Origin: an uncultured Planctomycetales bacterium
GTDB taxonomy: Bacteria > Omnitrophota > Gorgyraeia > Zapsychrales > JANLHA01
Reading direction: 5' to 3'
Assembly: GCA_964474085.1 (NCBI GenBank)
Contig: CAYYRJ010000004.1
Coordinates: forward strand, 11,656 to 75,655
Length of the DNA stretch: 64,000 nucleotides
This document shows, piece by piece, positions 5,335 to 57,641 of this stretch (position 1 is the stretch's first letter; each line of letters opens with the position of its first letter). A program made the position numbers and the translations under genes. The notes below the pieces were generated by a model, which saw only the letters and a program-made list of their open reading frames with translations, had not been told where the DNA came from and searched no databases.

Positions 5335-5443
5335 TGTAAAACCTAGCAATACAAGAAATCACATATTTTTAACCCCCCACCTTGTAATCAACAATTTTCT
5401 ATGTTATACATGACCTAGAAACGTACCCATTGAAAAAGGTAAA

Positions 5444-5459
5444 CTATCCGTAAGGATAG
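5444..5459 (+). promoter_or_regulatory. Small hairpin CTATCC-GTAA-GGATAG, the first of two direct-repeat motifs (AAACTAT..GGATAG) upstream of pilA1
   Basis: Read directly from the sequence. A second copy lies at 5502-5521, overlapping a weak -24/-12-like GG-N10-GC (GG 5514-15, GC 5526-27). Confidence 0.2.
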
Positions 5460-5711
5460 GGCACAAAACTAGAGGGTCCCTAAAATACAGATAACGATTT
5501 AAAACTATGCTAGGGATAGCCAGTTGCCAACAAACACAAAATATTTTGGTAAATGTGCCTATTCTAAGGTAGAATGCAACATACGAATAGGCTTTTTTAT
5601 TTAACCTGACAACCCTTGAAAGGAGTGATGACGCGACAAAAATGTTCGGTTTTAAATCCAATAAAATAAAAAAAACGTAAAATCTGAAAGTCAACATAAA
5701 GGAGAAATTCA

Positions 5712-45930: not shown

Positions 45931-47148
45931 ATGCAAACCATGGAAACCATCACACGCACAACTTGCCGCCTGTGTGACTGCGATAAACTGCATGAGGTCT
46001 TTTCCGTCGGGGAACAGTACATCAATGATTTTGTCCCACCTGAAAGAGTCGGAAAAGGATTAAAAGCCCCGCTGGATTTGGTCATGTGCGACCGCTGTTC
46101 ACTTTTGCAACTTCGCCATACCGCTCCGCAAGAGCTCTTATATGCGCGTTATTATTGGTATCGCTCCGGGGTAACAGATACGATGCGCCGCGCCCTGCGC
46201 GACATTACCGCAGAAATCGAGTCGATGGTGACTTTAAAACCCGGCGATGTTGTTTTGGATATCGGAGCCAACGATGGAACCATGCTGGCAACGTATACGG
46301 CAGAGGGGATTTGTCGCGTCGGCTGTGAGCCAGCCAATAATTTGATCGATCTTTTGCGCAAAAACACCCCTTACGTGATGCACGATTTTTGGAGTTACGA
46401 AAGTTATATGGAATTAGCCAAAGGCTGGGGATTTGGCAAAGCGAAAGTGATTACCGCTATCGGCATGTTTTATGACCTTGAGGATCCCAACAAATTCATT
46501 AAAGATGCCCAGCGAGCTTTGGCCGACGACGGGATTTTTGTCGCACAGCTGATGTGCTTAGCCCCCATGATCGAAAAAAATGATTTGGGTAACATTTGCC
46601 ATGAACATCTTGAATATTATTCTCTGGCGTCTCTGAAATATCTGTTTGAAACCAACGGCCTTGAAATGTTTAAGATCGAAGAGAATAATGTCAACGGCGG
46701 AAGCTATCGGATTTTTGCGCGTCATTACAAAGGAACCGGGATTTCGTTTGATGAAAAATATGACCGCACCGATATTTTAAACTTTGCGAAACGTTTAGAG
46801 GACAATCGCAAACGTTGCGTTGATTTTATCAAAGCTGAAGTCGCAAAGGGGAAAAAAGTTTATGTTTACGGCGCATCGACGAAGGGAAACGTGATTCTCC
46901 AATATTATGGTTTGGATCACACCTTGATTACCGCCGCCGCTGAACGCAGTCCAGAAAAATGGGGCAAATACACCATCGGCTCATGGATACCAATTATTTC
47001 TGAAGAAGAGGCGAGAAAGGCAAAACCGGATTATTTTTTGGTCTTGCCGTGGGCATTTTTTGACGAATTTTATAAACGAGAAGCCGATTGGCGTGCTGGC
47101 GGTGGAAAATTTATTGTTCCCTTACCAGATTTTAGGGTGGTGCCATGA
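45931..47148 (+). CDS. NDP-hexose C-methyltransferase (TylCIII-like; zinc-binding N-domain + Methyltransf_14)
   Basis: N-terminal CRLCDC...CDRCSLLQL zinc-binding domain, SAM motif VLDIGANDGT, and a C-terminal C-methyltransferase domain. Confidence 0.7.
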   Translation: MQTMETITRTTCRLCDCDKLHEVFSVGEQYINDFVPPERVGKGLKAPLDLVMCDRCSLLQLRHTAPQELLYARYYWYRSGVTDTMRRALRDITAEIESMVTLKPGDVVLDIGANDGTMLATYTAEGICRVGCEPANNLIDLLRKNTPYVMHDFWSYESYMELAKGWGFGKAKVITAIGMFYDLEDPNKFIKDAQRALADDGIFVAQLMCLAPMIEKNDLGNICHEHLEYYSLASLKYLFETNGLEMFKIEENNVNGGSYRIFARHYKGTGISFDEKYDRTDILNFAKRLEDNRKRCVDFIKAEVAKGKKVYVYGASTKGNVILQYYGLDHTLITAAAERSPEKWGKYTIGSWIPIISEEEARKAKPDYFLVLPWAFFDEFYKREADWRAGGGKFIVPLPDFRVVP

Positions 47149-47576
47149 ACTTAATTCCCGTCGAAGAATATCGCAAAATTCTCGAAGTCTTGCCAATCCT
47201 GTGTGTGGATATCATCGCCCAAAACAGCGCCGGCGAATATTTGTTAATTAAAAGGGCCAATGAACCCAAAAAGGATGTTTGGTGGGTCATCGGCGGCCGT
47301 GTCCTCAAAGGCGAGACGCTTAATGAAGCCGTCAAGCGCAAAGTCAAAGAAGAAACAGGCCTTGACGTTACCGACTTAAAGCCCGTTGGATATTTCGAAT
47401 TAGTGCAAGGCGCGAATCCTTTTGGACTGCCGTTTGAATATCACACGGTCAGTGTTGTTTTTTCGGCGGTGATTGACGAGACTCAGCCGATACGTCTAGA
47501 TAAGCAAAGTTTGGGATACAAATTTTCGAAAGAGTTGCCAGCTGATTTTGATGTTAAAGATTTTAAATCCTGTTAA
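47145..47576 (+). CDS. Nudix hydrolase, GDP-mannose mannosyl hydrolase (Gmm/WcaH)-like
   Basis: Nudix box GGRVLKGETLNEAVKRKVKEETGL; size and context next to gmd. Confidence 0.7.
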   Translation: MNLIPVEEYRKILEVLPILCVDIIAQNSAGEYLLIKRANEPKKDVWWVIGGRVLKGETLNEAVKRKVKEETGLDVTDLKPVGYFELVQGANPFGLPFEYHTVSVVFSAVIDETQPIRLDKQSLGYKFSKELPADFDVKDFKSC

Positions 47577-47596
47577 AAGAAAGTGCAGAAAGATTT

Positions 47597-48595
47597 ATGA
47601 GTAAAAAAGCATTGGTTTTTGGCGTCACCGGACAAGATGGCAGTTATTTAGCCGAGGTCCTTTTGGAAAAAGGCTATGAAGTCCATGGAATGGTCCGCCG
47701 TTCAGCAACCGGCAATACGCGCAATGTGGACCATTTAATTGCCGACCCGAAGATCTTTCAAAAAAACTTTTTTATCCATCGCGGCGATTTAGCAGATCCG
47801 ACATCCATCTATCGGATCATCAATGCCGTCAAGCCTCAGGAAATTTATAATGAAGCCGACCAGGATCATGTCGGCTGGAGTTATGATATGGTCGGGTTTT
47901 CAGCTGATATTACCGGCGCTGCCGTCGGGCGCATTCTGGAGATCATCAAACAAGTGAATCCTACGATCCGCTATTTTCAGCCATGCACCTCCAACATGTT
48001 TGGAAAAACAGAAACAATCTCTCAAAGTGAAACAACCCCCTTTAATCCGCAAAGCCCCTATGCGTGTTCCAAACTTTTTGCCTATCATTTGACGCGCTAT
48101 TACCGGGAGGCGTTTGGGATTTTTGCGTCAAACGCGATTCTTTACAATCACGAATCTCCTCGACGCACGCCCGAGTATGTCACACGCAAAATCACACAAT
48201 CCGTGGCAAGGATCGCTTGTGGGAAACAAGATAAGCTTATCTTAGGCGATCTGACGGCGTGTATCGATTGGGGCTATGCTAAAGAATATATGCAAGCGGC
48301 TTGGCAAATCCTTCAACTCGATAAACCGGACGACTTTATCATCGCAACAGGCGAAACGCATAGTGTTGAAGAATGGGTCAAAGAAGCATTTGCGGTTGTT
48401 AATCTCAAATCCGATGACTATGTCTTGACCGATCCTAAACTTTTACGACCGACCAAAACGTCGACCTTAACCGGGGATATCAGCAAAGCCAAAAAGGCTT
48501 TTGGGTTTGACCCCAAAATCAAATTTAAAGAGTTGGTCAAGCTGATGGTAGAAGCGGATTTAGAAAGGGAGCGTGGTCATGGCCACAGAGAATAA
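47597..48595 (+). CDS. gmd: GDP-mannose 4,6-dehydratase
   Basis: KALVFGVTGQDGSYLAEVLLEKGYEVHGMVRRSA is a near-consensus Gmd N-terminus; YACSK catalytic motif. Confidence 0.9.
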   Translation: MSKKALVFGVTGQDGSYLAEVLLEKGYEVHGMVRRSATGNTRNVDHLIADPKIFQKNFFIHRGDLADPTSIYRIINAVKPQEIYNEADQDHVGWSYDMVGFSADITGAAVGRILEIIKQVNPTIRYFQPCTSNMFGKTETISQSETTPFNPQSPYACSKLFAYHLTRYYREAFGIFASNAILYNHESPRRTPEYVTRKITQSVARIACGKQDKLILGDLTACIDWGYAKEYMQAAWQILQLDKPDDFIIATGETHSVEEWVKEAFAVVNLKSDDYVLTDPKLLRPTKTSTLTGDISKAKKAFGFDPKIKFKELVKLMVEADLERERGHGHRE

Positions 48596-49622
48596 AATCA
48601 AGATTTCAATTTGTATCCCGACGCATAACCGCGCCAAATTTTTGGCTGAAACGCTCGAGAATGTGTTGCAGCAAGCTACCGATGAGATTGAAGTCGTCAT
48701 CGTTGACGGAGCTTCAAGCGATAATACAAAAGAAGTTGCCGAAGAATACCGGCAAAAATTCCGCAACTTTATCTATTATCGTGGCGAAAAAAATATGGGT
48801 GTCAATCGCGACATGGGCCGGACGATTGAACTGGCGCACGGCGATTATTGCTGGATGCTCTCGGACGATGATTGTTTGCGTCCCGGCGCTTTAAATCAAA
48901 TGTTAAATGAAATCCAGTCGCAGTGCGAGATTTACCTCTGCAATGTTACCGTCTGCGACTTGTTTCTCAACCCGCTGCGAGACCGCCAGTGGCTTTCTGC
49001 CAAAGTTCCTGAAAGAATCTTTAATCTTCACGAAAAAAATGACTTTATCGAATACTGCCAAAACGCCAATTCGATTGGCGCACTTTTTAGTTATATGAGT
49101 TCCATCGTAGTGTCTCGTAAAGCCTGGAACCAAACCGGTTATCATCAAGATTTTGACAAAACCGCTTACGCGCTGGCCTCATCGCTGATGTCTTTTATCA
49201 AAGAAAAATGCCGGTTAAAGTATCTTCGAACTCCTTTAGTGTTTTGGCGCAATGATAATGCAAGCTTCCAATTCGACGGAGGCTTGGTCAAAAGGTTTCT
49301 TCTGGATTTTGACGGGTATTTGCAGTTGGCCGATAAATATTTGCCCGAAGACACCCCGATGCGTGATGCCTTTTTGCATGTGATGTTGCGCGAGCATCCC
49401 TGGTACACCATTGTTAACGTCACCTCTTATATTCATGACGACCAAGAATGGCAGGATTTCAAAAACAAAATGCTCAAATTCGGGTATCATCCGCAGATGG
49501 CACAGATTTGCTTTTCACTGGGGAGATACAAGAACCTTGTGTCCTTTGCTGTTATGATCAAGCGCAAAATACTTAAAAGCCATCGGCTAAATCAGTTTGC
49601 AAGGTTATTGTGGAAGCATTAA
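48573..49622 (+). CDS. Family 2 glycosyltransferase
   Basis: ISICIPTHNRAKFLAETLENVLQQ...VVIVDGASSD. Confidence 0.75.
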   Translation: MVMATENKIKISICIPTHNRAKFLAETLENVLQQATDEIEVVIVDGASSDNTKEVAEEYRQKFRNFIYYRGEKNMGVNRDMGRTIELAHGDYCWMLSDDDCLRPGALNQMLNEIQSQCEIYLCNVTVCDLFLNPLRDRQWLSAKVPERIFNLHEKNDFIEYCQNANSIGALFSYMSSIVVSRKAWNQTGYHQDFDKTAYALASSLMSFIKEKCRLKYLRTPLVFWRNDNASFQFDGGLVKRFLLDFDGYLQLADKYLPEDTPMRDAFLHVMLREHPWYTIVNVTSYIHDDQEWQDFKNKMLKFGYHPQMAQICFSLGRYKNLVSFAVMIKRKILKSHRLNQFARLLWKH

Positions 49623-49638
49623 TCAGAATATCGTCAAA

Positions 49639-50907
49639 ATGATAACCTTTTTGAATTATTTGCTCGTTCTGAATATTTTTTCGGGAGGTCTGACCTTATT
49701 TACATCACCTTTCGAATTTTATTTCGGATATACCTTCTTACTGGCTTTCCTCATCTTGTATATTTTGCTTTTCCGCAATATCACTTGCCATAAAACTTTT
49801 CTCGCTATTTTATCAATTCTGACGATTTTTTCTCTGGTGAATGTTTATCTGGGAAAAGACACGATGTCTCTTCTGATCAAACAAATTGCCGGCATCCTGT
49901 TAAATGCCATCGCATATTATTTATTGCTTAATATTAACCAATATAAAGTTGAAAGATTATTCAAAGCGTATTTGCAAATCGCCCTTTGCGTCGCTGCCCT
50001 TGGAATTTTTCAGGAATTAAGTTTTTTGATCCACTTCGAAAAGGGTTACGAGTACGGATGGATTTTTAATAAATGGTATTCTTCTCCGGCGACAGGGGGG
50101 ATGTTGAGGGTCAACTCGGTTTTTATGGAACCGTCTCATTTTGCAATCGCAATGGCTCCCGCGATGTTTATCGCCGTATCAAGGCTTTTTAAAAAAAATT
50201 CCCCTTACTTAAAATCCGTATGGAGCAGCCTGATTCTCATTACAAGTTATCTGTTAACATTTTCTGCAATTGCCTATTTTGCGATCGCCTTAAGTATCGT
50301 GCTGTTGCTGAATATTAAAAAATGGAAATACTCGCTTTTATTAATCGTCCTTGTCCCTTTTTTAAGTTTTGCCGCGTATCGTTTTATCCCCGAAATCCGC
50401 ATGCGGGTTGACTCGACTCTTGGTGTGGCACTCGGTTCAAAAAACCTCGCCACATCACACCTAAGCGTCTATGTTGTAGCGAGCAATGCATTTGTGGCTT
50501 ACAAAAGTCTTACCGATAATATCTTGTTCGGACATGGTTTAGGCAGTCATCCGGTTTCTTATGATCAATATATCGTCTTTGATATCGATGGCGGGTTTTG
50601 GTCCAATAAATATCCGCGCGCTAACAAAGCGGATGCTGGGTCTCTTTTGCTGCGTTTGCTCTCGGAAACAGGACTGTTTGGCACAATCGCCGTTCTTTAT
50701 TTTGTGTTTAAATTCCGCCTTAAAATGCGAGATGAAACAGACATGACCCTGATCAGCAATGCGATTTTTGTTTTACTCATTCTGCAGTTGTTAAAACAAG
50801 GGCATTATTTTTATAATGGACTGTTTTTCTTCGTCTGGGTGTATTATTTTGCATATCAAATACATCGTCAGAAAAACCGTCAAATGTTGCAGGTAAAAAA
50901 TCCTTGA
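49639..50907 (+). CDS. O-antigen polymerase/ligase-like (Wzy family) polytopic membrane protein
   Basis: About 11 TM helices with a large periplasmic loop near the C-terminal third (Wzy_C-like). No other function is recognisable. Confidence 0.5.
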   Translation: MITFLNYLLVLNIFSGGLTLFTSPFEFYFGYTFLLAFLILYILLFRNITCHKTFLAILSILTIFSLVNVYLGKDTMSLLIKQIAGILLNAIAYYLLLNINQYKVERLFKAYLQIALCVAALGIFQELSFLIHFEKGYEYGWIFNKWYSSPATGGMLRVNSVFMEPSHFAIAMAPAMFIAVSRLFKKNSPYLKSVWSSLILITSYLLTFSAIAYFAIALSIVLLLNIKKWKYSLLLIVLVPFLSFAAYRFIPEIRMRVDSTLGVALGSKNLATSHLSVYVVASNAFVAYKSLTDNILFGHGLGSHPVSYDQYIVFDIDGGFWSNKYPRANKADAGSLLLRLLSETGLFGTIAVLYFVFKFRLKMRDETDMTLISNAIFVLLILQLLKQGHYFYNGLFFFVWVYYFAYQIHRQKNRQMLQVKNP

Positions 50908-51992
50908 AAAAAGTCATTATTGTCTCTGCGGTCAACCTCACGCAAGCAGGCCCTTTAACCGTCCTTCAAGAATGCCTTAAATATTTATCTGACAATTTGG
51001 CCGATAAATATCGGGTCATTGCGCTCGTCAACAAAAAGAAATTGTTTGACTTGGCTAATATCGAATATTTAGAGTTTCCTAAGTCAAAAAAGTCGTGGTT
51101 TAACCGTTTATTTTACGAATACTATTATTTTCGAAAGATATCAGAACAGTACCGTCCAGATCTATGGTTGTCTCTGCATGATATGACGCCAAACGTCTGC
51201 GCAAAGCGGTTAGCTGTCTATTGCCATAATGCCTCGGCGTTTTACAAGCTGTCTTTGAAAGAAGCGTCTTTGGACGTGCGATTTACTCTGTTTAATCTGT
51301 TCTACAAATATTTATATTTGATCAACATCAAAAAAAATGATTTTATCGTCGTGCAACAAAGTTATTTAAGAAGTATCTTCCAAGAGTTTGCCCCGCAAGC
51401 TAAGATTATTGTGGCGCACCCGAATATAAGCGAAGGCGAAGAAAGCAATTGTTCTGTTTTAAAAGAAAATATTTTCTTTTATCCGTCATTCCCAAGAGTT
51501 TTTAAAAATTTTGAAATTATCGGCAAAGCCTGCGAGATATTAACACAACAGGGCGTTGTCGATTTTCAAGTTATCTTTACCATTTCGGGGAGCGAAAACC
51601 ATTATGCCCGATTGATCTACAATTCTTTTAAACATATTAAACAAATCAAATTTATAGGAATTCAGCAAAAAGAAAATGTTTATGAGCTTTATCGTCGGGC
51701 TTGTTGTGTCATTTTTCCCTCAAAATTAGAAACGTGGGGCATGCCGATCACCGAAGCTAAACATCTGGGCAAACCACTTCTTTTAGCCGATTTGGAATAT
51801 GCCCATGAAACGCTGGGAAGCTATGATAAAGCCAAATTCTTTGATGCCAAAAGCCCCGAACAACTAGCGATAGCTATGAAAAGCGTTATCGACAAAACCA
51901 TCCTTTTTGAGAAACATCACGCCAAGCCGATCATCCCACCTTTCACACAAAGCTGGAAAGAACTGTTTAATATTTTATTGCACGACGTTTGA
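50904..51992 (+). CDS. GT4-family (GT-B, glycosyl transferase group 1) glycosyltransferase
   Basis: C-terminal EX7E-like region (ETWGMPITEAKHLGKPLL) typical of GT4. Confidence 0.7.
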   Translation: MKKVIIVSAVNLTQAGPLTVLQECLKYLSDNLADKYRVIALVNKKKLFDLANIEYLEFPKSKKSWFNRLFYEYYYFRKISEQYRPDLWLSLHDMTPNVCAKRLAVYCHNASAFYKLSLKEASLDVRFTLFNLFYKYLYLINIKKNDFIVVQQSYLRSIFQEFAPQAKIIVAHPNISEGEESNCSVLKENIFFYPSFPRVFKNFEIIGKACEILTQQGVVDFQVIFTISGSENHYARLIYNSFKHIKQIKFIGIQQKENVYELYRRACCVIFPSKLETWGMPITEAKHLGKPLLLADLEYAHETLGSYDKAKFFDAKSPEQLAIAMKSVIDKTILFEKHHAKPIIPPFTQSWKELFNILLHDV

Positions 51993-52023
51993 AAAAATAA
52001 ATAAAATTTGGTAAGGTTAACCC

Positions 52024-52854
52024 ATGTATGACATTATCGCTTCGATTGTCACTTATAAAAATGACACAACCACTTTGTCAAAAGCCATCGCAAGCTTTTT
52101 AAATTCGGGCTTAAAGACGTATCTTTATGTCATCGACAATTCTCCGACAAACGAACTGAAGGATGTTTGCGCCTTTAAAAACGTCGAATACATCTTCAAT
52201 AATAAGAATGTGGGTTTTGGATCTGGGCATAATATAGCCCTGCGTAAAATGTCCAGCCAAACAAAATATTCGCTCATTTTAAACCCGGACGTTTACTTTG
52301 AGCCAAGGACACTCGAGAAATTATTTGATTTTATGGAAAAAAACAACGATGTCGGACTTGTTCTGCCTAAAGTTTTATATCCCGACGGTTCTTTGCAATA
52401 TCTTTGCCGATTATTGCCGGATCCCTGCGATATGCTCCTTCGAAAAATCGAAATAAAATTTTTAAGTCCTCTGCTGGATGCACAAAAAGCCCGCTACGAG
52501 CTTAGGTTTGCCGATTACAATACCCAAATGGAAGCTCCGTATTTGTCAGGATGTTTTATGTTTTTAAGAACAAATATCCTCGAAAAGACCGGTATTTTTG
52601 ATGAGCGTTTTTTTATCTATTTTGAAGATGTTGATTTGTCCAGACGAATTCACAAGCACTATCGCACCGTCTATTACCCAGAAGCGCTCATCACGCATGG
52701 ATATCAGCGCGGTTCCAATAAAGACAGCCATCTGCTCAAACATCTTGTTTCTTCGGGCATAAAATATTTTAATAAATGGGGCTGGTTTTTTGACCGCGAA
52801 CGAAAATTGGCGAACACGAAAGCAATAAAAAATTGCTACAAAAATCGTCTTTAA
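52024..52854 (+). CDS. Family 2 glycosyltransferase (rhamnosyltransferase-like)
   Basis: IVTYKNDTTTL...YVIDNSP and FEDVDLS motifs. Confidence 0.7.
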   Translation: MYDIIASIVTYKNDTTTLSKAIASFLNSGLKTYLYVIDNSPTNELKDVCAFKNVEYIFNNKNVGFGSGHNIALRKMSSQTKYSLILNPDVYFEPRTLEKLFDFMEKNNDVGLVLPKVLYPDGSLQYLCRLLPDPCDMLLRKIEIKFLSPLLDAQKARYELRFADYNTQMEAPYLSGCFMFLRTNILEKTGIFDERFFIYFEDVDLSRRIHKHYRTVYYPEALITHGYQRGSNKDSHLLKHLVSSGIKYFNKWGWFFDRERKLANTKAIKNCYKNRL

Positions 52855-52869
52855 AGGAACAAAGAAAAA

Positions 52870-54573
52870 ATGCCAACCGTTTTAATTACAGGCGCGACAG
52901 GGTTTATCGGGCGTGCTCTTTGCGTAAAAATGTTAAGTGAAGGGTGGAAGGTTAAAGGAACTTTTCGAAAAGAGTCCGAACCAAACACCCTGCCGCAAAG
53001 GGTTATCGGCGTTGCTCTGGACTTAACCAGTCCGTCTGTTTGCCCTCAAAGTGATTTTGCGGATGTCGATGTCGTCGTCCACTTGGCCGCACGTGTGCAC
53101 ATTCTCAAAGACCCGTCGAAAAATCCGCTTGAAGATTTTCGCAAAGCCAATGTCCAGGGAACAGAACATTTGGCGCGCATGGCAAAGGAAGCGGGGGTCA
53201 AAAGATTTATTTTTATCAGTTCCGTCAAAGTCAATGGGCAAGGGGCAAACCGCCCTTACAAAGAAACTGATATCCCGGCACCCGAAGATGCTTATGGAAT
53301 AACCAAGCGGGAAGCTGAAGACGTATTGAAAAATATTTCGCTTCAGACGGGTTTACCGACCGTCATTTTACGGCTACCCTTAGTTTATGGCCCGGGGGTG
53401 AAAGCGAATTTTAAAAATTTGATTAAGCTCGCTTCGTTGGGGCTGCCGTTGCCGTTTAAAAATATCCGCAATCAACGCAGTTTTCTTTATCTGGGTAATC
53501 TTATCGATGCGATAACGCTGTGCATCACGCATCCTAAGGCGATAAGCGAAACTTTTTTAGTCAGCGATGGGGAAGATATTTCAACACCAGATCTTCTGCG
53601 GCTGATCGCTGCGGCAAAAAACAAGCGACTCATTTTATTTTCTTTACCAACAGATTTTTTAAACAGGCTTGGAGCTCTGTTTAGACAAAATAAAACAATA
53701 GAAAAATTAACCGGTTCTCTGTGTGTTGACAACCGTAAAATCCAAAATTTACTCGGCTGGAAACCGCCCTTTACGCTAGAAGAGGGGATTGCAGAAACCG
53801 TTAAATTTCTCGAACATGATAAACCCAGATTTTGCATTAGCCAAACTCCTGTTTGGCCAAAGCAAAATCTGCCCGAAGGGCCGCATGTCTCGACAAAGTC
53901 GAGACGTGCGGGGTTAATCCTTGCGGTAAACCGCAACCGAAGGCAAATTTTGCATTTCCCTTTTTTGTGCGTGACGGATCGTCACGCACTATGTTGTAAT
54001 GCAAAATTTGGGATAAAACGCACCTTTGACCTGACTTTAGCAATTATTTTAATCCTTCTCTTGGCTTTGCCGATTCTTTTGATTGGCGCTTTTATCAAAT
54101 TAAAATCCAAAGGCCCGGCTTTTTTTTGGACGGATCGCGTCGGTGTCAATAACAACATTTTCAAAATGGTTAAATTCCGGACCATGCGCACCGACACGCC
54201 GCAGCTGGCCACGCATCTGATGAAAAATCCGCAAGACTATTTAATTGCAGGGGGAGAATTTTTGCGCAAGTACAGCCTTGATGAATTGCCGCAATTATTC
54301 AATGTGATTAAAGGGGATATGAGTTTTGTGGGACCTCGGCCGGCTCTGTTTAATCAGGATGATTTAGTGGCCCTGAGAACAGCCAAAGGGGTTCACAGGT
54401 TGATCCCCGGGATTACCGGCTGGGCTCAAGTTAACGGACGAGATGATTTGCCAATCCCCCAAAAAGTTTCGTTTGATGAAGAGTACTTACATCGACGGTC
54501 TTTGGCGTTTGATCTGTATATTATTTTTTTAACCGCATATAAAGTTCTTAAAAAAGAAGGCGTACGCCATTAA
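52870..54573 (+). CDS. Fusion protein: N-terminal NAD-dependent nucleotide-sugar epimerase + C-terminal small phosphoglycosyl transferase (PglC/WbaP-C-like bacterial sugar transferase)
   Basis: N-terminal VLITGATGFIGRAL epimerase domain (about 310 aa). C-terminal single TM followed by KMVKFRTMRTD and DELPQLFNVIKGDMSFVGPRP, the PGT catalytic signature. There is no in-frame stop between the domains. The linker is encoded by three perfect hairpins (53887-53989). Confidence 0.7.
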   Translation: MPTVLITGATGFIGRALCVKMLSEGWKVKGTFRKESEPNTLPQRVIGVALDLTSPSVCPQSDFADVDVVVHLAARVHILKDPSKNPLEDFRKANVQGTEHLARMAKEAGVKRFIFISSVKVNGQGANRPYKETDIPAPEDAYGITKREAEDVLKNISLQTGLPTVILRLPLVYGPGVKANFKNLIKLASLGLPLPFKNIRNQRSFLYLGNLIDAITLCITHPKAISETFLVSDGEDISTPDLLRLIAAAKNKRLILFSLPTDFLNRLGALFRQNKTIEKLTGSLCVDNRKIQNLLGWKPPFTLEEGIAETVKFLEHDKPRFCISQTPVWPKQNLPEGPHVSTKSRRAGLILAVNRNRRQILHFPFLCVTDRHALCCNAKFGIKRTFDLTLAIILILLLALPILLIGAFIKLKSKGPAFFWTDRVGVNNNIFKMVKFRTMRTDTPQLATHLMKNPQDYLIAGGEFLRKYSLDELPQLFNVIKGDMSFVGPRPALFNQDDLVALRTAKGVHRLIPGITGWAQVNGRDDLPIPQKVSFDEEYLHRRSLAFDLYIIFLTAYKVLKKEGVRH

Positions 54574-54621
54574 TTTCTGCTAAGATTGATTTCAAATTTT
54601 TTAAATTCCTATACTCGACCT

Positions 54622-56448
54622 ATGAATATAAAATCATTTCTCCTCAAATTCCGTCGTCCAATTGTTGTTATTGTGCATCTTGTTTTGGTGACCATCGCTT
54701 ATGTGATGGCTTTTTATCTGCGTTTGGATTTTAATATCAGCAGCACTTACTGGGGCGTCATCGAACGGACCCTGCCGCTGTTAATTTGTATTAAAACAAT
54801 CATTTTTGGGTCCTTTGGCCTGTTCTCGGGGCTGTGGCGATATATCGGCATTTCTGACATTTGGCGGATCATCAAAGTCCATGTGTTGGCGATGTTGTGT
54901 TTTGTTTTTATTATTTATGTCGCCTATCCTTTAAATGGATTTCCCCGGTCAATCTTTATTTTAGATTGCGTCTTGAGTTTTTGCCTTGTGACAGGCATCC
55001 GTTTTGTGACACGATTATTTAGAGAAAAATACCGGCCTGTTCCCGGTAGCACAAGAAAAAGGGCAATTATTGTCGGCGCGGGGGATGCGGGCGTGTTGGT
55101 GTTGCGCGATGTCAAATCGAATGTAAAAGCCAATCTCCAAATTGTCGGTTTTATCGACGATGATCCGGCCAAGAAGAATTTACATATTCAAGGAATTCCT
55201 ATCTTAGGCAACCAGAATGATATCCCGGAAATTGTCAATAAGTTTGGGGTCGATGAAGTGATTATTTCGATCCCTTCGGCCAAGGGAGAGACGATTCGAA
55301 GCATCGTCGCCAAGTGCGAAATATTATCCGTAAGAATCCGTATCGTCCCGGGATTACAAAAAATATTAAACGGCGAAATTGAAGTCAAACCCCGCGACAT
55401 AAGGCCGGAAGACCTTTTAGGCAGAGAAACCGTCACAATCAATGCGAAGGAAATCAGCAGTTACCTGACCCAAAAAGTCGTTTTGGTAACCGGCGCCGGC
55501 GGGTCAATCGGGTCGTGTCTTTGCCGGCAAATCGTAACGTTTAACCCTAAAGAACTCGTGCTGTTTGATCATAATGAAAATGATGTCTATTATCTAGTCA
55601 TTGATTTCTTGCGAAAATATCCGCACATCAAATTCAGAAGCATTATCGGGGATGTAAAAGATATCGGGCTTTTAAAAAATATGTTTTCACTTTACAAGCC
55701 GCAGGTGATCTTTCACGCCGCCGCCCATAAACATGTGCCTTTGATGGAAGAAAACCCGGTAGCTGCGGTAAAAAATAATGTTATCGGGACCCGCAATCTT
55801 ATTTATGCAGCTGACCATTATGGCGTCGAACGCTTTATTCTGATTTCATCCGATAAAGCAGTCAATCCAACCAATGTCATGGGAGCGACCAAACGTGTTG
55901 CCGAGATGATCCTGCAATCAAAGGCGAAACAAAGCAAAACCAAATTTATGGCCGTTCGGTTTGGAAATGTTTTAGGCTCCAACGGAAGCGTTGTCCCGTT
56001 ATTTAAAAAACAGATCGAACAAGGCGGGCCGGTCACCGTGACTGACCCAGACGTGACGAGATATTTTATGAGTGTCGATGAGGCTTGCCAGCTGGTTTTG
56101 CAGGCCGGAAGTATGGGTAAGGCAGGCGAAATTTTTATTTTGGATATGGGGGAACAAATCAAAATTTTGGATCTGGCCAAGGAACTTATCACGCTCTACG
56201 GTCTTAAACCCGACGAGGACATTAAAATCGAAATGATCGGTTTGCGCCCGGGCGAAAAACTTTACGAAGAAACATTGTTAGACACCGAAAGAGACCAAGC
56301 CACAAAGGAAGAAAAAATATATATCGCCCAATCTCTGCATTTTGACCCGCGGGCACTGCGGCGTGACATCAAAGAACTCGAAAAACTTATCAATGTCATG
56401 GACGGTCCGAAGGTTGCCAAGAAATTAAAAGAAATTATTACCGCATGA
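54622..56448 (+). CDS. Membrane-anchored UDP-sugar 4,6-dehydratase (CapD/WbpM/PglF family)
   Basis: Four N-terminal TM helices, then VVLVTGAGGSIGSCLCRQIV Rossmann motif and the CapD family C-terminal domain. Confidence 0.85.
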   Translation: MNIKSFLLKFRRPIVVIVHLVLVTIAYVMAFYLRLDFNISSTYWGVIERTLPLLICIKTIIFGSFGLFSGLWRYIGISDIWRIIKVHVLAMLCFVFIIYVAYPLNGFPRSIFILDCVLSFCLVTGIRFVTRLFREKYRPVPGSTRKRAIIVGAGDAGVLVLRDVKSNVKANLQIVGFIDDDPAKKNLHIQGIPILGNQNDIPEIVNKFGVDEVIISIPSAKGETIRSIVAKCEILSVRIRIVPGLQKILNGEIEVKPRDIRPEDLLGRETVTINAKEISSYLTQKVVLVTGAGGSIGSCLCRQIVTFNPKELVLFDHNENDVYYLVIDFLRKYPHIKFRSIIGDVKDIGLLKNMFSLYKPQVIFHAAAHKHVPLMEENPVAAVKNNVIGTRNLIYAADHYGVERFILISSDKAVNPTNVMGATKRVAEMILQSKAKQSKTKFMAVRFGNVLGSNGSVVPLFKKQIEQGGPVTVTDPDVTRYFMSVDEACQLVLQAGSMGKAGEIFILDMGEQIKILDLAKELITLYGLKPDEDIKIEMIGLRPGEKLYEETLLDTERDQATKEEKIYIAQSLHFDPRALRRDIKELEKLINVMDGPKVAKKLKEIITA

Positions 56449-57641
56449 AATTAAAAATTTCTAATTACCTGGATATCGGCATCCTCTATTGCCTTTATGC
56501 TCTTATTTTTTTTATTCCTATTTCTATCGCCGGGATTAGCATATTTGCCGGTCTGGCTATTCTTTTATTTGTGATCCGGCAAATTATCACACCGGATTTT
56601 CAAAACATCCGAACAAACAAAACGTTCTTTCTGCTGCTTCTGGTTTTTTTCTTTTTTATGGCCTTATCATTATTCAACAGCGGTCCACTTCTAGGAAAAA
56701 GCCTCAAAGCCCTGTTTCTCAAATGGGGAAGATTTCCTCTGCTTTTGTGGGTCATGATCGACACCTTGCGCGATAGCCGGCGCATTATCAATGCCGTATG
56801 GATTTTTGCCCTTAGCTCGATGATATTAGCGCTGACATCTTTTTCACAAAAATTTTTAGGACACGAATTTATCTTTGGGCATCCTTTAAATCCCGGTGGC
56901 ATCATCACCGGATCGTTTAAAAATCAAAATGACTTGGCGGCGTATCTAACTGCTGTCATCCCGATGATTTTGGGCTTTGCCTTATGGAAAACCGGAAGAA
57001 AATTTACGCAAATCGGTCTTTTTATACTTAGTGCGCTATTGCTTTGCGTTTGTGCGATGACTCTCTGCCGGGGAGGCTGGCTAGGTCTTGCGGTAGGGCT
57101 CATCTCAATTGTTTTACTTATCTGCTCCCACCATTTATCCCAAAAAACATTTTGGCCGCTGGCCGTGTCAGGCTACCTTTTCTTTGTGCCGCTAACAGCA
57201 CTGGCCTTATTTTTCTTTCAGAGCCGCGGGGATAGTGCACGCTTAATGCTTTATGAAGGGGCCTGGAAAATGATCGTCGAAAATCCATTTCTGGGCAAGG
57301 GATTAGGGACTTATATGGACCATTGTGCAAACTACATCCATCAAATTGGCGTTTATTATGTCCATAATTGTTTTTTACAAATATGGGCGGAATCGGGAAT
57401 TTTTTCTTTATTGAGTTTTCTTGTGCTAAATGGGTACGTCATTTATAAAAACTTTAACCTAACTCTACGGATCCCGGCGTCATTGGAATCTTTTTTATTT
57501 ATCGGCTTAAATGCCGGATTATTAGGTTTTTTGGTCCACTGTTTTTTTGATACACAGCTTTATTCTTTGCAGTTAAGTTTTCTTTTTTGGATTACGATGG
57601 GATTAACACTTGCGCTTTATACAAACCTAAAGCAAGGTTAA
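56445..57641 (+). CDS. O-antigen ligase family (Wzy_C domain; WaaL/PglL/PilO-like) membrane protein
   Basis: Polytopic protein with a periplasmic loop carrying CRGGWLGLAVGL, the Wzy_C signature around the conserved Arg. Confidence 0.7.
   Translation: MKLKISNYLDIGILYCLYALIFFIPISIAGISIFAGLAILLFVIRQIITPDFQNIRTNKTFFLLLLVFFFFMALSLFNSGPLLGKSLKALFLKWGRFPLLLWVMIDTLRDSRRIINAVWIFALSSMILALTSFSQKFLGHEFIFGHPLNPGGIITGSFKNQNDLAAYLTAVIPMILGFALWKTGRKFTQIGLFILSALLLCVCAMTLCRGGWLGLAVGLISIVLLICSHHLSQKTFWPLAVSGYLFFVPLTALALFFFQSRGDSARLMLYEGAWKMIVENPFLGKGLGTYMDHCANYIHQIGVYYVHNCFLQIWAESGIFSLLSFLVLNGYVIYKNFNLTLRIPASLESFLFIGLNAGLLGFLVHCFFDTQLYSLQLSFLFWITMGLTLALYTNLKQG

What the first reader, a model, noticed from the sequence alone, without database searches (positions are those of the whole stretch)
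52870..54573. Epimerase-phosphoglycosyltransferase fusion whose inter-domain linker is encoded by three perfect hairpins
A single 567-aa ORF joins an NAD-dependent sugar epimerase to a PglC-like initiating phosphoglycosyl transferase (KFRTM, DELPQL..GDMSFVGPRP). The about 60-codon linker contains GTCTCGAC-AAA-GTCGAGAC (53887-53905), TTGCGG-TAAA-CCGCAA (53921-53936) and GTGCGTGACG-GAT-CGTCACGCAC (53967-53989). There is no in-frame stop and no canonical start precedes the PGT transmembrane helix. This could be an unusual bifunctional initiator. Alternatively it could be a recent gene fusion across a structured intergenic region, or a site of translational regulation by RNA structure.
Basis: seen in the sequence. 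Interest (0 to 1): 0.6.

Follow-up and report, generated by a model that had tools for sequence, protein, structure and literature searches.

The report
Small transposon fuses two sugar-pathway genes
The hairpin-rich "linker" is a 189-bp miniature transposon (MITE) that landed just after the start codon of a sugar-phosphate transferase gene and, being stop-free in the incoming frame, joined that gene to the upstream sugar epimerase/reductase gene as one 567-codon reading frame.

Summary
The region folds far better than chance (-97.8 kcal/mol, z = -11.7).

The linker is not an evolved linker or intergenic region. It is a 189-bp MITE (53824-54012) with 16-nt terminal inverted repeats (TIRs) and a perfect 5-bp target duplication, ATAAA.

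- The syntenic relative L001 (91-96% nt identity) has an empty site there, with separate 314-aa and 187-aa genes.
- The same TIRs bound about 20 elements in other genomes, nearly all with 5-bp duplications.
- The TIRs resemble the ISEcp1 (IS1380 family) ends at 12 of 17 positions.
- Hairpins are kept across eight copies by compensatory changes, so they belong to the element.

Without the element, the epimerase frame would overlap the PGT start and stop 17 nt further on. Element plus duplication adds 194 nt with no stop in the entering frame, so one insertion creates the fusion. The PGT's own ATG now opens a 33-codon dead end.

AlphaFold2 gives two confident domains joined by a disordered tether (residues 319-377). 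Fusions of this domain order are common elsewhere, so it is plausibly functional, though this is untested.

Related copies sit in frame in murG, neuC-like and comF-like genes. This is a new member of known kinds, of moderate interest.

The parts
52870..53823 (+). Extended-SDR NDP-sugar epimerase/reductase part of the fused ORF (aa 1-318). The last codons, CAT GAT AAA, read across the former PGT start in the -1 frame.
   Evidence: Pfam PF01370/PF16363 at aa 4-310. It is 90% identical to the stand-alone 314-aa P0002 in L001. pLDDT is above 90. PDB has only remote matches, so the exact reaction is unknown.
53816..53917 (+). Ancestral ATG of the PGT gene (53816-53818). It now opens a 33-codon dead-end frame that stops at TAA 53915-53917 inside the element.
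   Evidence: Alignment with L001, where ACATGATAAAACGC starts the 187-aa PGT. The frame-+2 translation of the element has stops.
53819..53823 (.). Left copy of the 5-bp target-site duplication, ATAAA.
   Evidence: ATAAA occurs once in the empty site of L001 and twice in the window, flanking the insertion.
53824..54012 (+). 189-bp MITE (subfamily B, long form) with no transposase. Read in its frame +1 it encodes P319-G381, the whole "linker".
   Evidence: It is absent from the syntenic L001, and the blastn alignment breaks exactly at 53823 and 54012. TIR-bounded relatives occur in other genomes. Frame +1 has 0 stops and the other frames have 1-3. AF2 pLDDT is below 50 for residues 319-377.
53824..53839 (+). 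Left terminal inverted repeat, CCCAGATTTTGCATTA.
   Evidence: It matches the right TIR at 15 of 16 positions. It is 12/17 identical to the ISEcp1 IRL, CCTAGATTCTACGTCAG.
53997..54012 (-). Right terminal inverted repeat (reverse complement CCCAAATTTTGCATTA).
53826..53871 (+). Hairpin 1. The left TIR pairs with a subterminal inverted copy (53826-35 with 53862-71). It encloses an inner stem, 53840-46 with 53851-57.
   Evidence: Five pairs show compensatory double changes across copies.
53881..53911 (+). Hairpin 2: a 14-bp stem with a 3-nt loop.
   Evidence: It is nearly invariant in 8 copies.
53921..53936 (+). Hairpin 3 (TTGCGG-TAAA-CCGCAA).
   Evidence: In L009 and L031 a different sequence that still pairs takes its place.
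53944..54010 (+). Hairpin 4. A subterminal repeat (53944-56) pairs with the right TIR (53998-54010).
   Evidence: The inner stem followed by UAUGUUGU is flagged as only a weak terminator-like site.
53965..53973 (+). In-frame TTG (53965-67) and GTG (53971-73). These are the only candidate internal starts for a stand-alone PGT.
   Evidence: Read from the sequence. There is no purine-rich Shine-Dalgarno-like motif upstream, and the GTG lies in the 5' arm of the 10-bp stem.
54013..54017 (.). Right copy of the target-site duplication, ATAAA.
54013..54573 (+). Small monotopic phosphoglycosyl transferase (PglC/WbqP-like) body, aa 382-567, now lacking its own start codon.
   Evidence: PF02397 at aa 383-561. 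It is 95% identical to the stand-alone 187-aa P0121. pLDDT is above 90, with helix-break-helix at 376-412.
54586..56448 (+). Downstream CapD/PglF/WbpM-like membrane NDP-sugar dehydratase gene, in the same operon.
   Evidence: PF02719 and PF13727. The gene order is syntenic in L001, L018 and L002.

Best explanation
A 189-bp non-autonomous transposon (MITE) inserted at the pentamer ATAAA, directly after the ATG of a stand-alone small phosphoglycosyl transferase (PGT) gene. The PGT gene lies immediately downstream of an SDR "epimerase" gene in a surface-glycan operon of an Omnitrophota-like bacterium. The element has IS1380/ISEcp1-like 16-17-nt TIRs beginning CCCAGATTTTGCATTAG and makes 5-bp target duplications.

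**How the fusion arose.** Before the insertion, the epimerase frame ran across the PGT start in the -1 frame and stopped 17 nt inside the PGT. Element plus duplication adds 194 nt (2 mod 3), and the element has no stop in the frame it is entered in. That one event therefore converted two overlapping, probably translationally coupled genes into one 567-codon ORF. The 63 element-encoded residues (P319-G381) form a disordered tether between two intact catalytic domains.

**What the hairpins are.** They are the element's own architecture. Each TIR pairs with a subterminal inverted copy, and there are three internal stem-loops. They are not a device evolved for this gene.

**Expression.** The PGT's own ATG now leads into a dead-end frame, so the PGT is most likely made only as the C-terminal half of the fusion. 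This is topologically acceptable, because the N-terminus of monotopic PGTs is cytoplasmic and natural epimerase-PGT fusions are common.

**Shown:** the insertion, TIRs, duplication, empty site, family membership, frame arithmetic, and predicted intact domains with a disordered linker.
**Inferred:** that the fusion protein is made and active, and that an IS1380-family transposase mobilises the element.
For: **Empty site and synteny.**
- L001 is colinear with window 46976-57623 at 91-96% nt identity. The alignment breaks exactly at 53823 and 54012.
- In L001 the sequence GTTAAATCCTTTTAAACATGATAAAACGC gives a 314-aa epimerase and a 187-aa PGT, 2 nt apart.
- L019 and L020 show overlapping separate genes.

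**Transposon hallmarks.**
- The TIRs match at 15/16 positions and the ATAAA duplication is perfect.
- A TIR..TIR pattern found 14 loci in species-representative genomes and 1 in metagenomes. Twelve of the 15 have exact 5-bp duplications and three match at 4/5. Ten near-identical copies lie in one metagenome-assembled genome (MAG).
- Further copies of the window's subfamily are in L006 (two copies), L009, L031, L032, L033 and L034.

**IS1380 link.**
- The ISEcp1 IRL was verified next to an annotated IS1380-like transposase. It is 12/17 identical to the TIR, with the same G/A difference between its two ends.
- The IS1380-family element IS1247 has 16/13-bp IRs and a 5-bp duplication (PMC3281130).

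**Structure belongs to the element.**
- Fold z = -11.7.
- On 8 copies, 96.8% of cells pair. Eight pairs carry double changes, a level reached by 1 of 500 shuffles. Slid controls pair at 27-41%.

**Frames.**
- With the element removed, the sequence reads ...CAT GAT AAA ACG CAC CTT TGA.
- Frame +1 of the element is open. The chance of that is about 0.24.

**Protein.**
- AF2 mean pLDDT is 86.4. Both domains exceed 90, and residues 319-377 fall below 50 with no secondary structure.
- Dozens of natural epimerase+Bac_transf fusions of about 490-534 aa exist, some named [quoted passage not shown].
- Bi-PGTs are a recognised class (PMC10312794).
Against: - No second copy of the element lies in the 64-kb window, and the rest of this genome could not be searched.
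- No full-length IS with these TIRs and no IS1380 transposase was found in any fetched locus.
- Expression and activity of the fusion are untested.
- The in-frame TTG and GTG inside the element could in principle give a separate PGT.
- The insertion may be too recent for decay to show, so intact motifs do not prove function.
- The fusion depends on the window copy being the 189-nt long form, with an extra A at 53859-61 and an extra T at 53961-66 relative to 187-nt copies. I could not check read support for these two short homopolymer runs.
Confidence: 0.85

Rival explanations
1. The fused ORF exists in the DNA but is not the functional product. Either the PGT is translated separately from the in-frame TTG (53965) or GTG (53971) inside the element, or the PGT has simply been knocked out by a very recent insertion and the long ORF is incidental.
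For: In-frame TTG and GTG exist 15 and 13 codons upstream of the PGT domain. A stop-free frame +1 is expected by chance about 24% of the time. The perfect duplication and near-perfect TIRs suggest a young insertion. No orthologue shares the fusion.
Against: There is no purine-rich ribosome-binding motif before the TTG or GTG, and the GTG is buried in a 10-bp, 7-GC stem. All PGT and SDR motifs are intact, and both domains are predicted confidently. The same domain order works in many natural fusions. In-frame copies of this element persist in essential or conserved genes such as murG, which shows that translation through the element is tolerated.
Confidence: 0.2
2. The frame continuity is a sequencing or assembly artefact. 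The true element would be the 187-nt form, in which the PGT keeps its own ATG and gains a 64-aa N-terminal insert while the epimerase terminates inside the element. Two homopolymer miscalls would then have created the apparent fusion.
For: The window copy differs from the closest copy (L033, 93% identity) by +1 A in an A-run (53859-61) and +1 T in a T-run (53961-66). With both removed, the PGT's own ATG frame would be open, as in the other in-ORF copies.
Against: Independent copies share the long-form lengths. L009 has the same spacing at both sites and L034 has the same T6 run. The runs are short (3 and 6 nt), and both errors would have to occur together. The flanks are colinear with L001 and the duplication is perfect.
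Confidence: 0.07
3. This is an evolved bifunctional initiator whose linker RNA hairpins regulate translation, co-translational folding or operon mRNA processing.
For: The RNA structure lies inside an ORF and is extremely stable. Natural Bi-PGT fusions exist. One stem is weakly terminator-like.
Against: The linker is a transposon with TIRs and a duplication, and it is absent from the 91-96% identical syntenic locus. The same hairpins occur in copies inserted in murG, neuC-like, comF-like and intergenic sites. Rfam gives no match. Natural fusions have short, unrelated linkers.
Confidence: 0.03
4. The fusion arose in steps rather than at once. A canonical 187-nt copy first inserted in frame with the PGT's own ATG. 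Two later 1-nt slips in the A- and T-runs then moved the open frame to the epimerase.
For: Four independent in-ORF copies, plus P0245, which shares the L006 insertion, use the 3n (element plus duplication) form, with "P[DN]FAL" entry and "NAK[FS]G" exit. The window path reads canonical frames +1, then +3, then +2.
Against: The intermediate with only one slip closes both frames, giving a PGT-null state. Long-form copies already exist elsewhere (L009, L034), so a one-step insertion of a long-form copy is more parsimonious.
Confidence: 0.1

Closest known systems
Prokaryotic MITEs, such as Correia, Nezha, Chunjie and ERIC
   Same: The element is about 190 bp with no transposase, terminal inverted repeats and a fixed-length target-site duplication. 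It occurs in many copies and has filled and empty sites in related genomes. Its predicted RNA structure is very stable. Chunjie is reported at about -98 to -130 kcal/mol and overlapping protein genes (PMC3184786).
   Different: The sequence is unrelated to the named families. The TIR (CCCAGATTTTGCATTAG) and 5-bp duplication point to an IS1380-type parent. I found no description of such a MITE in Omnitrophota or PVC genomes. Here the insertion joins two enzyme genes rather than merely extending one.
Rickettsia palindromic elements (RPEs) and other repeats inserted in frame in protein genes (BOX, ERIC, BRE, Anabaena MITEs)
   Same: A palindromic mobile repeat of about 60 codons is read through as part of host proteins. 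Related copies lie in frame in murG, neuC-like and comF-like genes and in a secreted-protein gene. The 187-nt and 196-nt forms are open in both orientations, and element plus duplication comes to a multiple of 3. In-frame fusions of this kind are reviewed in PMC10969869 and PMC3184786.
   Different: There is no sequence relation to RPEs. These elements have classic TIRs and duplications. The window copy is a length variant that is not a multiple of 3, so it shifts frame and fuses two genes. Evidence that translatability is an intrinsic, selected property is only suggestive (P about 0.05-0.11 per element by shuffling).
ISEcp1 / IS1380-family insertion sequences
   Same: The ends begin with CC, the inverted repeats are about 16 nt, and the duplications are 5 bp and AT-rich. 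The TIR is 12/17 identical to the ISEcp1 IRL, with the same G/A difference at position 5 between the two ends (IS1247 in PMC3281130).
   Different: The element has no transposase gene. No full-length partner with these TIRs was found, so the assignment is an inference.
Bifunctional monotopic phosphoglycosyl transferases (Bi-PGTs), specifically [quoted passage not shown] proteins
   Same: The domain order is the same: an N-terminal extended SDR and a C-terminal PglC-like catalytic core with a re-entrant helix. The catalytic motifs are the same, and the operon neighbour is the same CapD/PglF-like dehydratase.
   Different: Natural fusions are about 490-534 aa with short linkers of roughly 20-35 aa and are 40-54% identical to this protein. 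Here each half is closest (65-95%) to stand-alone Omnitrophota genes. The 63-aa linker is transposon DNA and the fusion is not shared by orthologues. This is an independent, very recent origin of the architecture.

Membership tests
MITE (miniature inverted-repeat transposable element) | Terminal inverted repeats at both ends | tested here: met
   CCCAGATTTTGCATTA and TAATGCAAAATTTGGG match at 15/16 positions.
MITE (miniature inverted-repeat transposable element) | Target-site duplication of fixed length flanking the element | tested here: met
   ATAAA flanks the window copy. The other copies also have 5-bp duplications, exact in most and 4/5 in a few.
MITE (miniature inverted-repeat transposable element) | Small size with no transposase coding capacity | tested here: met
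   The element is 189 bp and family members are 176-197 bp. tblastn with the ISEcp1 transposase finds nothing.
MITE (miniature inverted-repeat transposable element) | Filled and empty sites in related genomes | tested here: met
   L001 is 91-96% identical, and its alignment with the window breaks exactly at the element ends.
MITE (miniature inverted-repeat transposable element) | Multiple copies at unrelated loci | tested here: met
   Ten copies lie in one MAG. At least 8 subfamily-B copies occur in several MAGs or metagenomes, two of them in L006 and two in GCA_964635405.1. Only one copy is seen in the 64-kb window itself.
MITE (miniature inverted-repeat transposable element) | A cognate autonomous IS with matching TIRs | tested here: inconclusive
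   None was found in the fetched loci or the window. A viral-contig scan gave only chance-level single hits.
IS1380-family-derived element | Ends starting with CC, inverted repeats of about 16 bp, and a 4-5-bp duplication | tested here: met
   (IS1247: IR 16/13, DR 5).
IS1380-family-derived element | TIR sequence similarity to a family member | tested here: inconclusive
   12/17 identity to the ISEcp1 IRL and 10/17 to the IRR. This is suggestive, but it rests on a single comparison.
IS1380-family-derived element | Mobilisation by an IS1380-type DDE transposase | not testable with these tools
   This needs the complete host genome or a transposition assay.
Bifunctional monoPGT (Bi-PGT) | Monotopic PGT catalytic core with a re-entrant helix and conserved motifs | tested here: met
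   PF02397 at aa 383-561, E = 7e-56. The KFRTM, DELPQ and PRP motifs are present. AF2 shows helix-break-helix at 376-412.
Bifunctional monoPGT (Bi-PGT) | A second functional domain fused in the same polypeptide | tested here: met
   A single ORF with no in-frame stop. This holds at the ORF level only.
Bifunctional monoPGT (Bi-PGT) | Common descent with, or conservation as, the established epimerase-PGT fusion family | tested here: not met
   Both halves are closest to stand-alone genes, the orthologous loci are unfused, and the linker is a MITE.
Bifunctional monoPGT (Bi-PGT) | Both activities shown in one protein | not testable with these tools
   This requires biochemistry.
RPE-like translated palindromic elements | In-frame insertion within protein-coding genes without stops | tested here: met
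   The window, L006a/P0245, L031 (murG), L032 and L033.
RPE-like translated palindromic elements | An element-intrinsic conserved open frame or peptide | tested here: inconclusive
   The 187-nt and 196-nt forms are open in frames +2 and -2, even when that frame is unused or the copy is intergenic. Chance is 5-11% per element, and the copies found by protein search are biased towards ORFs.
Cis-regulatory RNA or intrinsic terminator | Match to a described RNA family, or a GC stem followed by a U-tract | tested here: not met
   The only Rfam match is tsr26 at E = 6.9. The 53967-53989 stem is followed by UAUGUUGU, only a marginal match.

The most novel reading that the evidence does not exclude
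The subfamily-B and -C elements may be "translation-compatible" selfish DNA, an Omnitrophota/PVC counterpart of the Rickettsia palindromic elements.

- They target WTWAA pentamers that are common in the first codons of genes (ATG/ATA/TTA followed by AAA).
- The canonical forms plus duplication add a multiple of 3.
- They are stop-free in the matching frame in both orientations, so they can sit inside essential genes such as murG.

Length variants such as the window's 189-nt copy would then act as one-step generators of multi-domain proteins. Here that recreates the Bi-PGT epimerase-PGT architecture. A different palindromic repeat in the linker of the P0001 fusion, and at the same junction in L018, hints that repeat insertion at overlapping gene junctions could be a recurrent route to such fusions.
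Probability: 0.35. Interest if true: 0.65.

Novelty: new member of a known kind. Interest (0 to 1): 0.45.

Why it matters
**Annotation.** The feature should not be annotated as an ancestral bifunctional enzyme or as a regulatory RNA. The locus is a dated snapshot of how a mobile element can create a two-domain enzyme in one step. The "before" state is preserved in a 91-96% identical relative. The resulting architecture has been fixed independently many times in other bacteria.

**Glycobiology.** It offers a natural test of whether tethering the last nucleotide-sugar-modifying enzyme to the initiating PGT is tolerated or beneficial, even with a 63-residue junk linker.

**Mobile-element biology.** It defines an undescribed MITE family with IS1380-like ends. 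Members are found in Omnitrophota-like MAGs, a cave MAG and Flavobacterium. Some of them persist in frame inside conserved genes.

**Genome annotation.** It flags a class of repeat that inflates or fuses ORFs in MAGs.

Tried and rejected
- **Rfam.** Neither the region at a permissive threshold nor the whole window at gathering threshold gave a family for the linker.
- **Second copy in the window.** blastn-short and a TIR scan with 3 mismatches found none.
- **Metagenome scan with the subfamily-B hairpin pattern.** It returned 0 hits. The second, TIR..TIR scan gave a single element of another subfamily.
- **Viral-contig scan with the 17-nt TIR.** The 9 single, unpaired matches are consistent with chance, so this line was dropped.
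- **Search for the autonomous IS.** No paired TIRs 1-2.5 kb apart and no ISEcp1-like transposase by tblastn turned up in any fetched locus or the window.
- **Exact-sequence look-up of the 567-aa protein.** It is not on record, so there is no independent assembly support.
- **PDB sequence search for the SDR domain.** Only remote matches (E about 1e-14) came back, so I do not name the reaction. The CapN/WbpK-type 4-reductase idea rests on my memory of CapD/CapN/CapM-type pathways only.
- **O'Toole et al. 2021 papers on PGT fusions.** They are not held in the library. I cite the classification second-hand from PMC10312794.
- **GTCATTGCGA repeat core at window 20970.** It is a chance match inside a Wzt-like ABC ATPase gene.
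- **A separate stop-codon loss (TAA to GAA).** I first thought one was needed. Removing the element shows the epimerase frame already overlapped the PGT start, so no extra step is required.
Full report
**1. The observation**

The window contains an ATG-initiated ORF at 52870..54573 (+) of 567 aa. Pfam assigns aa 4-310 to the NAD-dependent epimerase/dehydratase (extended SDR) families. It assigns aa 383-561 to Bac_transf (PF02397, E = 7e-56), the monotopic phosphoglycosyl transferase (PGT) core.

The first extends to 14-nt arms (53881-53911).

As RNA, 53820-54020 folds at -97.8 kcal/mol. Dinucleotide shuffles give -50.8 +/- 4.0, so z = -11.7.

One qualification concerns start codons. There is no in-frame ATG before the PGT domain, but in-frame TTG (53965-67) and GTG (53971-73) exist. 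The ancestral ATG of the PGT is still present at 53816-53818.

**2. What the linker is**

A protein search gave two kinds of hit:
- Dozens of epimerase+Bac_transf fusions of about 490-534 aa at 40-54% identity. Some carry the NCBI name [quoted passage not shown].
- Much closer stand-alone epimerases at 65-90% identity, about 312-338 aa, several from Candidatus Omnitrophica.

The PGT half is likewise closest to stand-alone proteins at 73-95% identity, almost all of 186-191 aa, and none of them covers the linker.

The contig carrying the 90%-identical epimerase (L001) is syntenic with the window. Over 46976-57623 it is 91-96% identical at the nucleotide level, and the alignment breaks exactly at 53823 and 54012. 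At that point L001 reads GTTAAATCCTTTTAAACATGATAAAACGC, which is the epimerase stop, 2 nt, then the PGT ATG.

The window has an extra 189 bp at 53824-54012. It is bounded by CCCAGATTTTGCATTA and TAATGCAAAATTTGGG (15/16 inverted) and flanked by a direct duplication of ATAAA (53819-23 and 54013-17). ATAAA occurs only once in L001. These are the signatures of a transposon insertion.

**3. It belongs to a mobile family**

A pattern requiring both TIRs 142-172 nt apart found 14 loci among species-representative genomes and one in JGI metagenomes. Twelve of these 15 copies have exact 5-bp duplications (ATAAA, TTGAA, TTTAC, TTAAA, TTCAA, TTAAT, TTTAT). The other three match at 4/5.

The subfamilies share the TIRs but differ inside:
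- A 176-nt form has 10 near-identical copies, in both orientations, in one cave MAG.
- A 196-nt form occurs in an Omnitrophota MAG (L011).
- A 197-nt form occurs in Flavobacterium davisii.
- A 188-nt form occurs in a metagenome.
- The window's own subfamily B occurs in L006 (two copies within 1 kb) and L009.

A search with the six-frame translation of the element found more B copies inside predicted proteins. I confirmed these at the DNA level in L031, L032, L033 and L034.

No transposase is encoded. No full-length partner was found in the DNA I could reach.

The ends (CC..., about 16 nt) and the 5-bp duplication fit the IS1380 family. IS1247, for example, has 16/13-bp IRs and a 5-bp duplication (PMC3281130). 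I verified the ISEcp1 left end, CCTAGATTCTACGTCAG, next to an annotated IS1380-like transposase on pC15-1a. It is 12/17 identical to the MITE TIR. ISEcp1 also shows the same G/A difference at position 5 between its two ends. The IS1380 assignment is therefore a reasonable inference, not a demonstration.

**4. The hairpins are the element's architecture**

RNAalifold on the B copies gives six helices:
- The left TIR pairs with a subterminal inverted copy, with a nested inner stem.
- There are two central stem-loops.
- A subterminal repeat pairs with the right TIR and encloses the 53967-53989 stem.

On eight copies, 96.8% of cells form standard pairs. Eight pairs show changes on both sides, a level reached by 1 of 500 shuffles. 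Sliding the partners by 1-3 columns drops pairing to 27-41%.

These copies lie in unrelated genes and in intergenic DNA. The structure is therefore maintained for the element, not for this operon. Plausible reasons are transposase recognition or DNA/RNA stability, but none was tested. Rfam has no matching family. The last stem is only marginally terminator-like.

**5. How the fusion arose**

Deleting the element and one ATAAA from the window gives ...GTT AAA TTT CTC GAA CAT GAT AAA ACG CAC CTT TGA. So the epimerase frame already ran across the PGT start in the -1 frame and stopped 17 nt inside it. More distant relatives show the same kind of overlap (L020 overlaps by 17 nt).

Element plus duplication adds 194 nt, which is 2 mod 3. 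This brings the PGT body into the epimerase frame. Frame +1 of the element, the frame entered from the epimerase, has no stop. A single insertion therefore suffices. Shuffling the interior of the element gives an open frame +1 about 24% of the time. The outcome is unremarkable as a chance event that selection then let through.

The PGT's own ATG now reads MINPDFALAK... and stops at 53915-53917.

**6. Is the fusion likely to work?**

AlphaFold2 was run with a 50-sequence alignment. Mean pLDDT is 86.4 and pTM is 0.72. Both domains score above 90, and residues 319-377 score below 50 with no secondary structure. So the 63 element-encoded residues (P319-G381) behave as a floppy tether.

The SDR motifs (GATGFIG, YxxxK) and the PGT motifs (KFRTM, DELPQ, PRP) are intact, as is the helix-break-helix at 376-412. 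Bi-PGTs with N-terminal fusions are an accepted class (PMC10312794), and this exact domain order is abundant. From established knowledge of PglC-type enzymes, the N-terminus is cytoplasmic, so an N-terminal soluble domain is topologically allowed.

I therefore consider it more likely than not that the PGT is made, and works, as part of the fusion. Internal initiation at the TTG or GTG is disfavoured, since there is no ribosome-binding motif and the GTG lies inside a GC-rich stem. It is not excluded.

The exact reaction of the SDR domain is unknown, because PDB matches are remote. The neighbouring CapD/PglF-like dehydratase suggests it acts on a UDP-4-keto-6-deoxy-HexNAc intermediate. That suggestion rests on my recollection of CapD/CapN/CapM-type pathways.

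**7. A caveat about two bases**

Four independent in-ORF B copies are the short form, where element plus duplication comes to a multiple of 3. They are in murG L031, neuC-like L033, comF-like L032 and the secreted protein L006a. P0245 carries the same insertion as L006a. These copies are entered as "P[DN]FAL" and exited as "NAK[FS]G".

The window copy is 2 nt longer, with an extra A at 53859-61 and an extra T at 53961-66. With the short form, the PGT would have kept its own start. L009 has the same spacing at both places and L034 the same T6 run. The long form is therefore a natural variant, and I rate a double homopolymer error as unlikely (about 7%). Read support should still be checked.

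**8. Wider pattern, not fully established**

B copies sit in frame in several genes:
- After codon 5 of murG (L031; one TIR decayed to 13/16).
- After codon 6 of a neuC-like gene at an overlapping neuB/neuC junction (L033).
- Internally in a comF-like phosphoribosyltransferase (L032).
- After codon 4 of a secreted Cys-rich protein (L006). That insertion is retained, still open, in a diverged orthologue, P0245.

The 187-nt form and the unrelated-interior 196-nt form (L011, intergenic) are open in frames +2 and -2 regardless of which frame is used. Chance gives 5-11% per element. Copies found by the protein search are biased towards ORFs. An RPE-like "translation-compatible" design is therefore a hypothesis only.

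In-frame repeat insertions as such are well documented: RPEs, ERIC, BOX and Anabaena MITEs (PMC10969869, PMC3184786).

**9. Verdict**

The finding is real, but its striking feature has an ordinary cause: a MITE. The result is a neat and, as far as I could find, undescribed example. It is a new IS1380-like MITE family and a one-step, transposon-made epimerase-PGT fusion, with the unfused ancestor-like state preserved in a close relative. I rate it a new member of known kinds, with moderate interest (0.45).

Noticed in passing
L018 2935-3000 (Logan DRR274959 contig; PGT 95% identical to the window's): A different palindromic repeat of about 65 nt (GGATTGCTTCGCTAGCGCTCGC...GCGACTCGCTATCGTTCGCAATGAC) sits at the same epimerase/PGT junction. 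It extends the epimerase ORF to 339 aa and overlaps the PGT start by 20 nt. This junction appears to be a hot spot for small-repeat insertion.
   Followed up: partly
L002 6394-6500 and 7080-7125 (JGI 3300009538; protein P0001, 574 aa): P0001 is the best full-length fusion homologue. It carries the same class of hairpin repeat (GATTGCTTCGC...GCTCGYAATGAC) in its inter-domain linker. A 27-aa in-frame insert (CFGASRLAMTQKP...) lies inside the epimerase domain. Two shorter inserts (GRDSHFFS, RTIKGDSHKR) are also present.
   Followed up: partly
L031 631-817 (JGI 3300038404): A 187-nt subfamily-B copy is inserted in frame after codon 5 of murG (MKPLI|64 aa|LKIVLATGGSGGH). One TIR has decayed to 13/16, so this looks like an older copy tolerated in an essential gene.
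   Followed up: partly
L033 1521-1707 and L032 1866-2049 (both from GCA_964635405.1): Two more in-frame subfamily-B insertions occur in one MAG. One follows codon 6 of a neuC-like UDP-GlcNAc 2-epimerase, at an overlapping neuB/neuC junction. The other lies internally in a comF-like phosphoribosyltransferase, just before the PRPP-binding motif.
   Followed up: partly
L006 991-1177 and 1953-2080; protein P0245: One copy is in frame after codon 4 of a secreted Cys-rich protein gene, displacing its signal peptide. The same insertion is kept open in a diverged orthologue (P0245). A second copy lies 3 nt upstream of the next gene's start.
   Followed up: partly
L034 2117-2256 (JGI 3300056831, 207-kb contig): A 5'-truncated copy (element positions 50-189) joins the 5' part of hflX, cut at the G1 motif, to what looks like the middle of a clpB-like gene. 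This is either an element-associated rearrangement or an assembly chimera.
   Followed up: no
Element ends, e.g. window 53999-54012; L006 1953-1966; L034 2243-2256: Each TIR reads outward as ATG CAA AAT YTG GG (MQNLG). Gene callers use this ATG as the start of downstream ORFs in L006 and L034. In the window that frame hits TAA immediately.
   Followed up: partly
L003-L016 (MAG DYRQ01, labelled Verrucomicrobium spinosum SulCav_GS10_10_56_36): There are ten near-identical 176-nt copies with the same TIRs. A second MITE family with TIR CCCAGATTATGCAATWG is also present. Three 176-nt copies (L003, L004, L014) are nested in members of that second family at TTGAA.
   Followed up: partly
L012 1575-1789 (Flavobacterium davisii CP067378): A 197-nt element with the same TIRs occurs in a Bacteroidota chromosome. 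An extra solo right-TIR copy follows it 2 nt downstream.
   Followed up: no
window 5428-5531 (+) and 15049-15122 (+): A c-di-GMP-I riboswitch aptamer (59 bits, above the gathering score) and a tRNA-Ala(CGC) gene.
   Followed up: no
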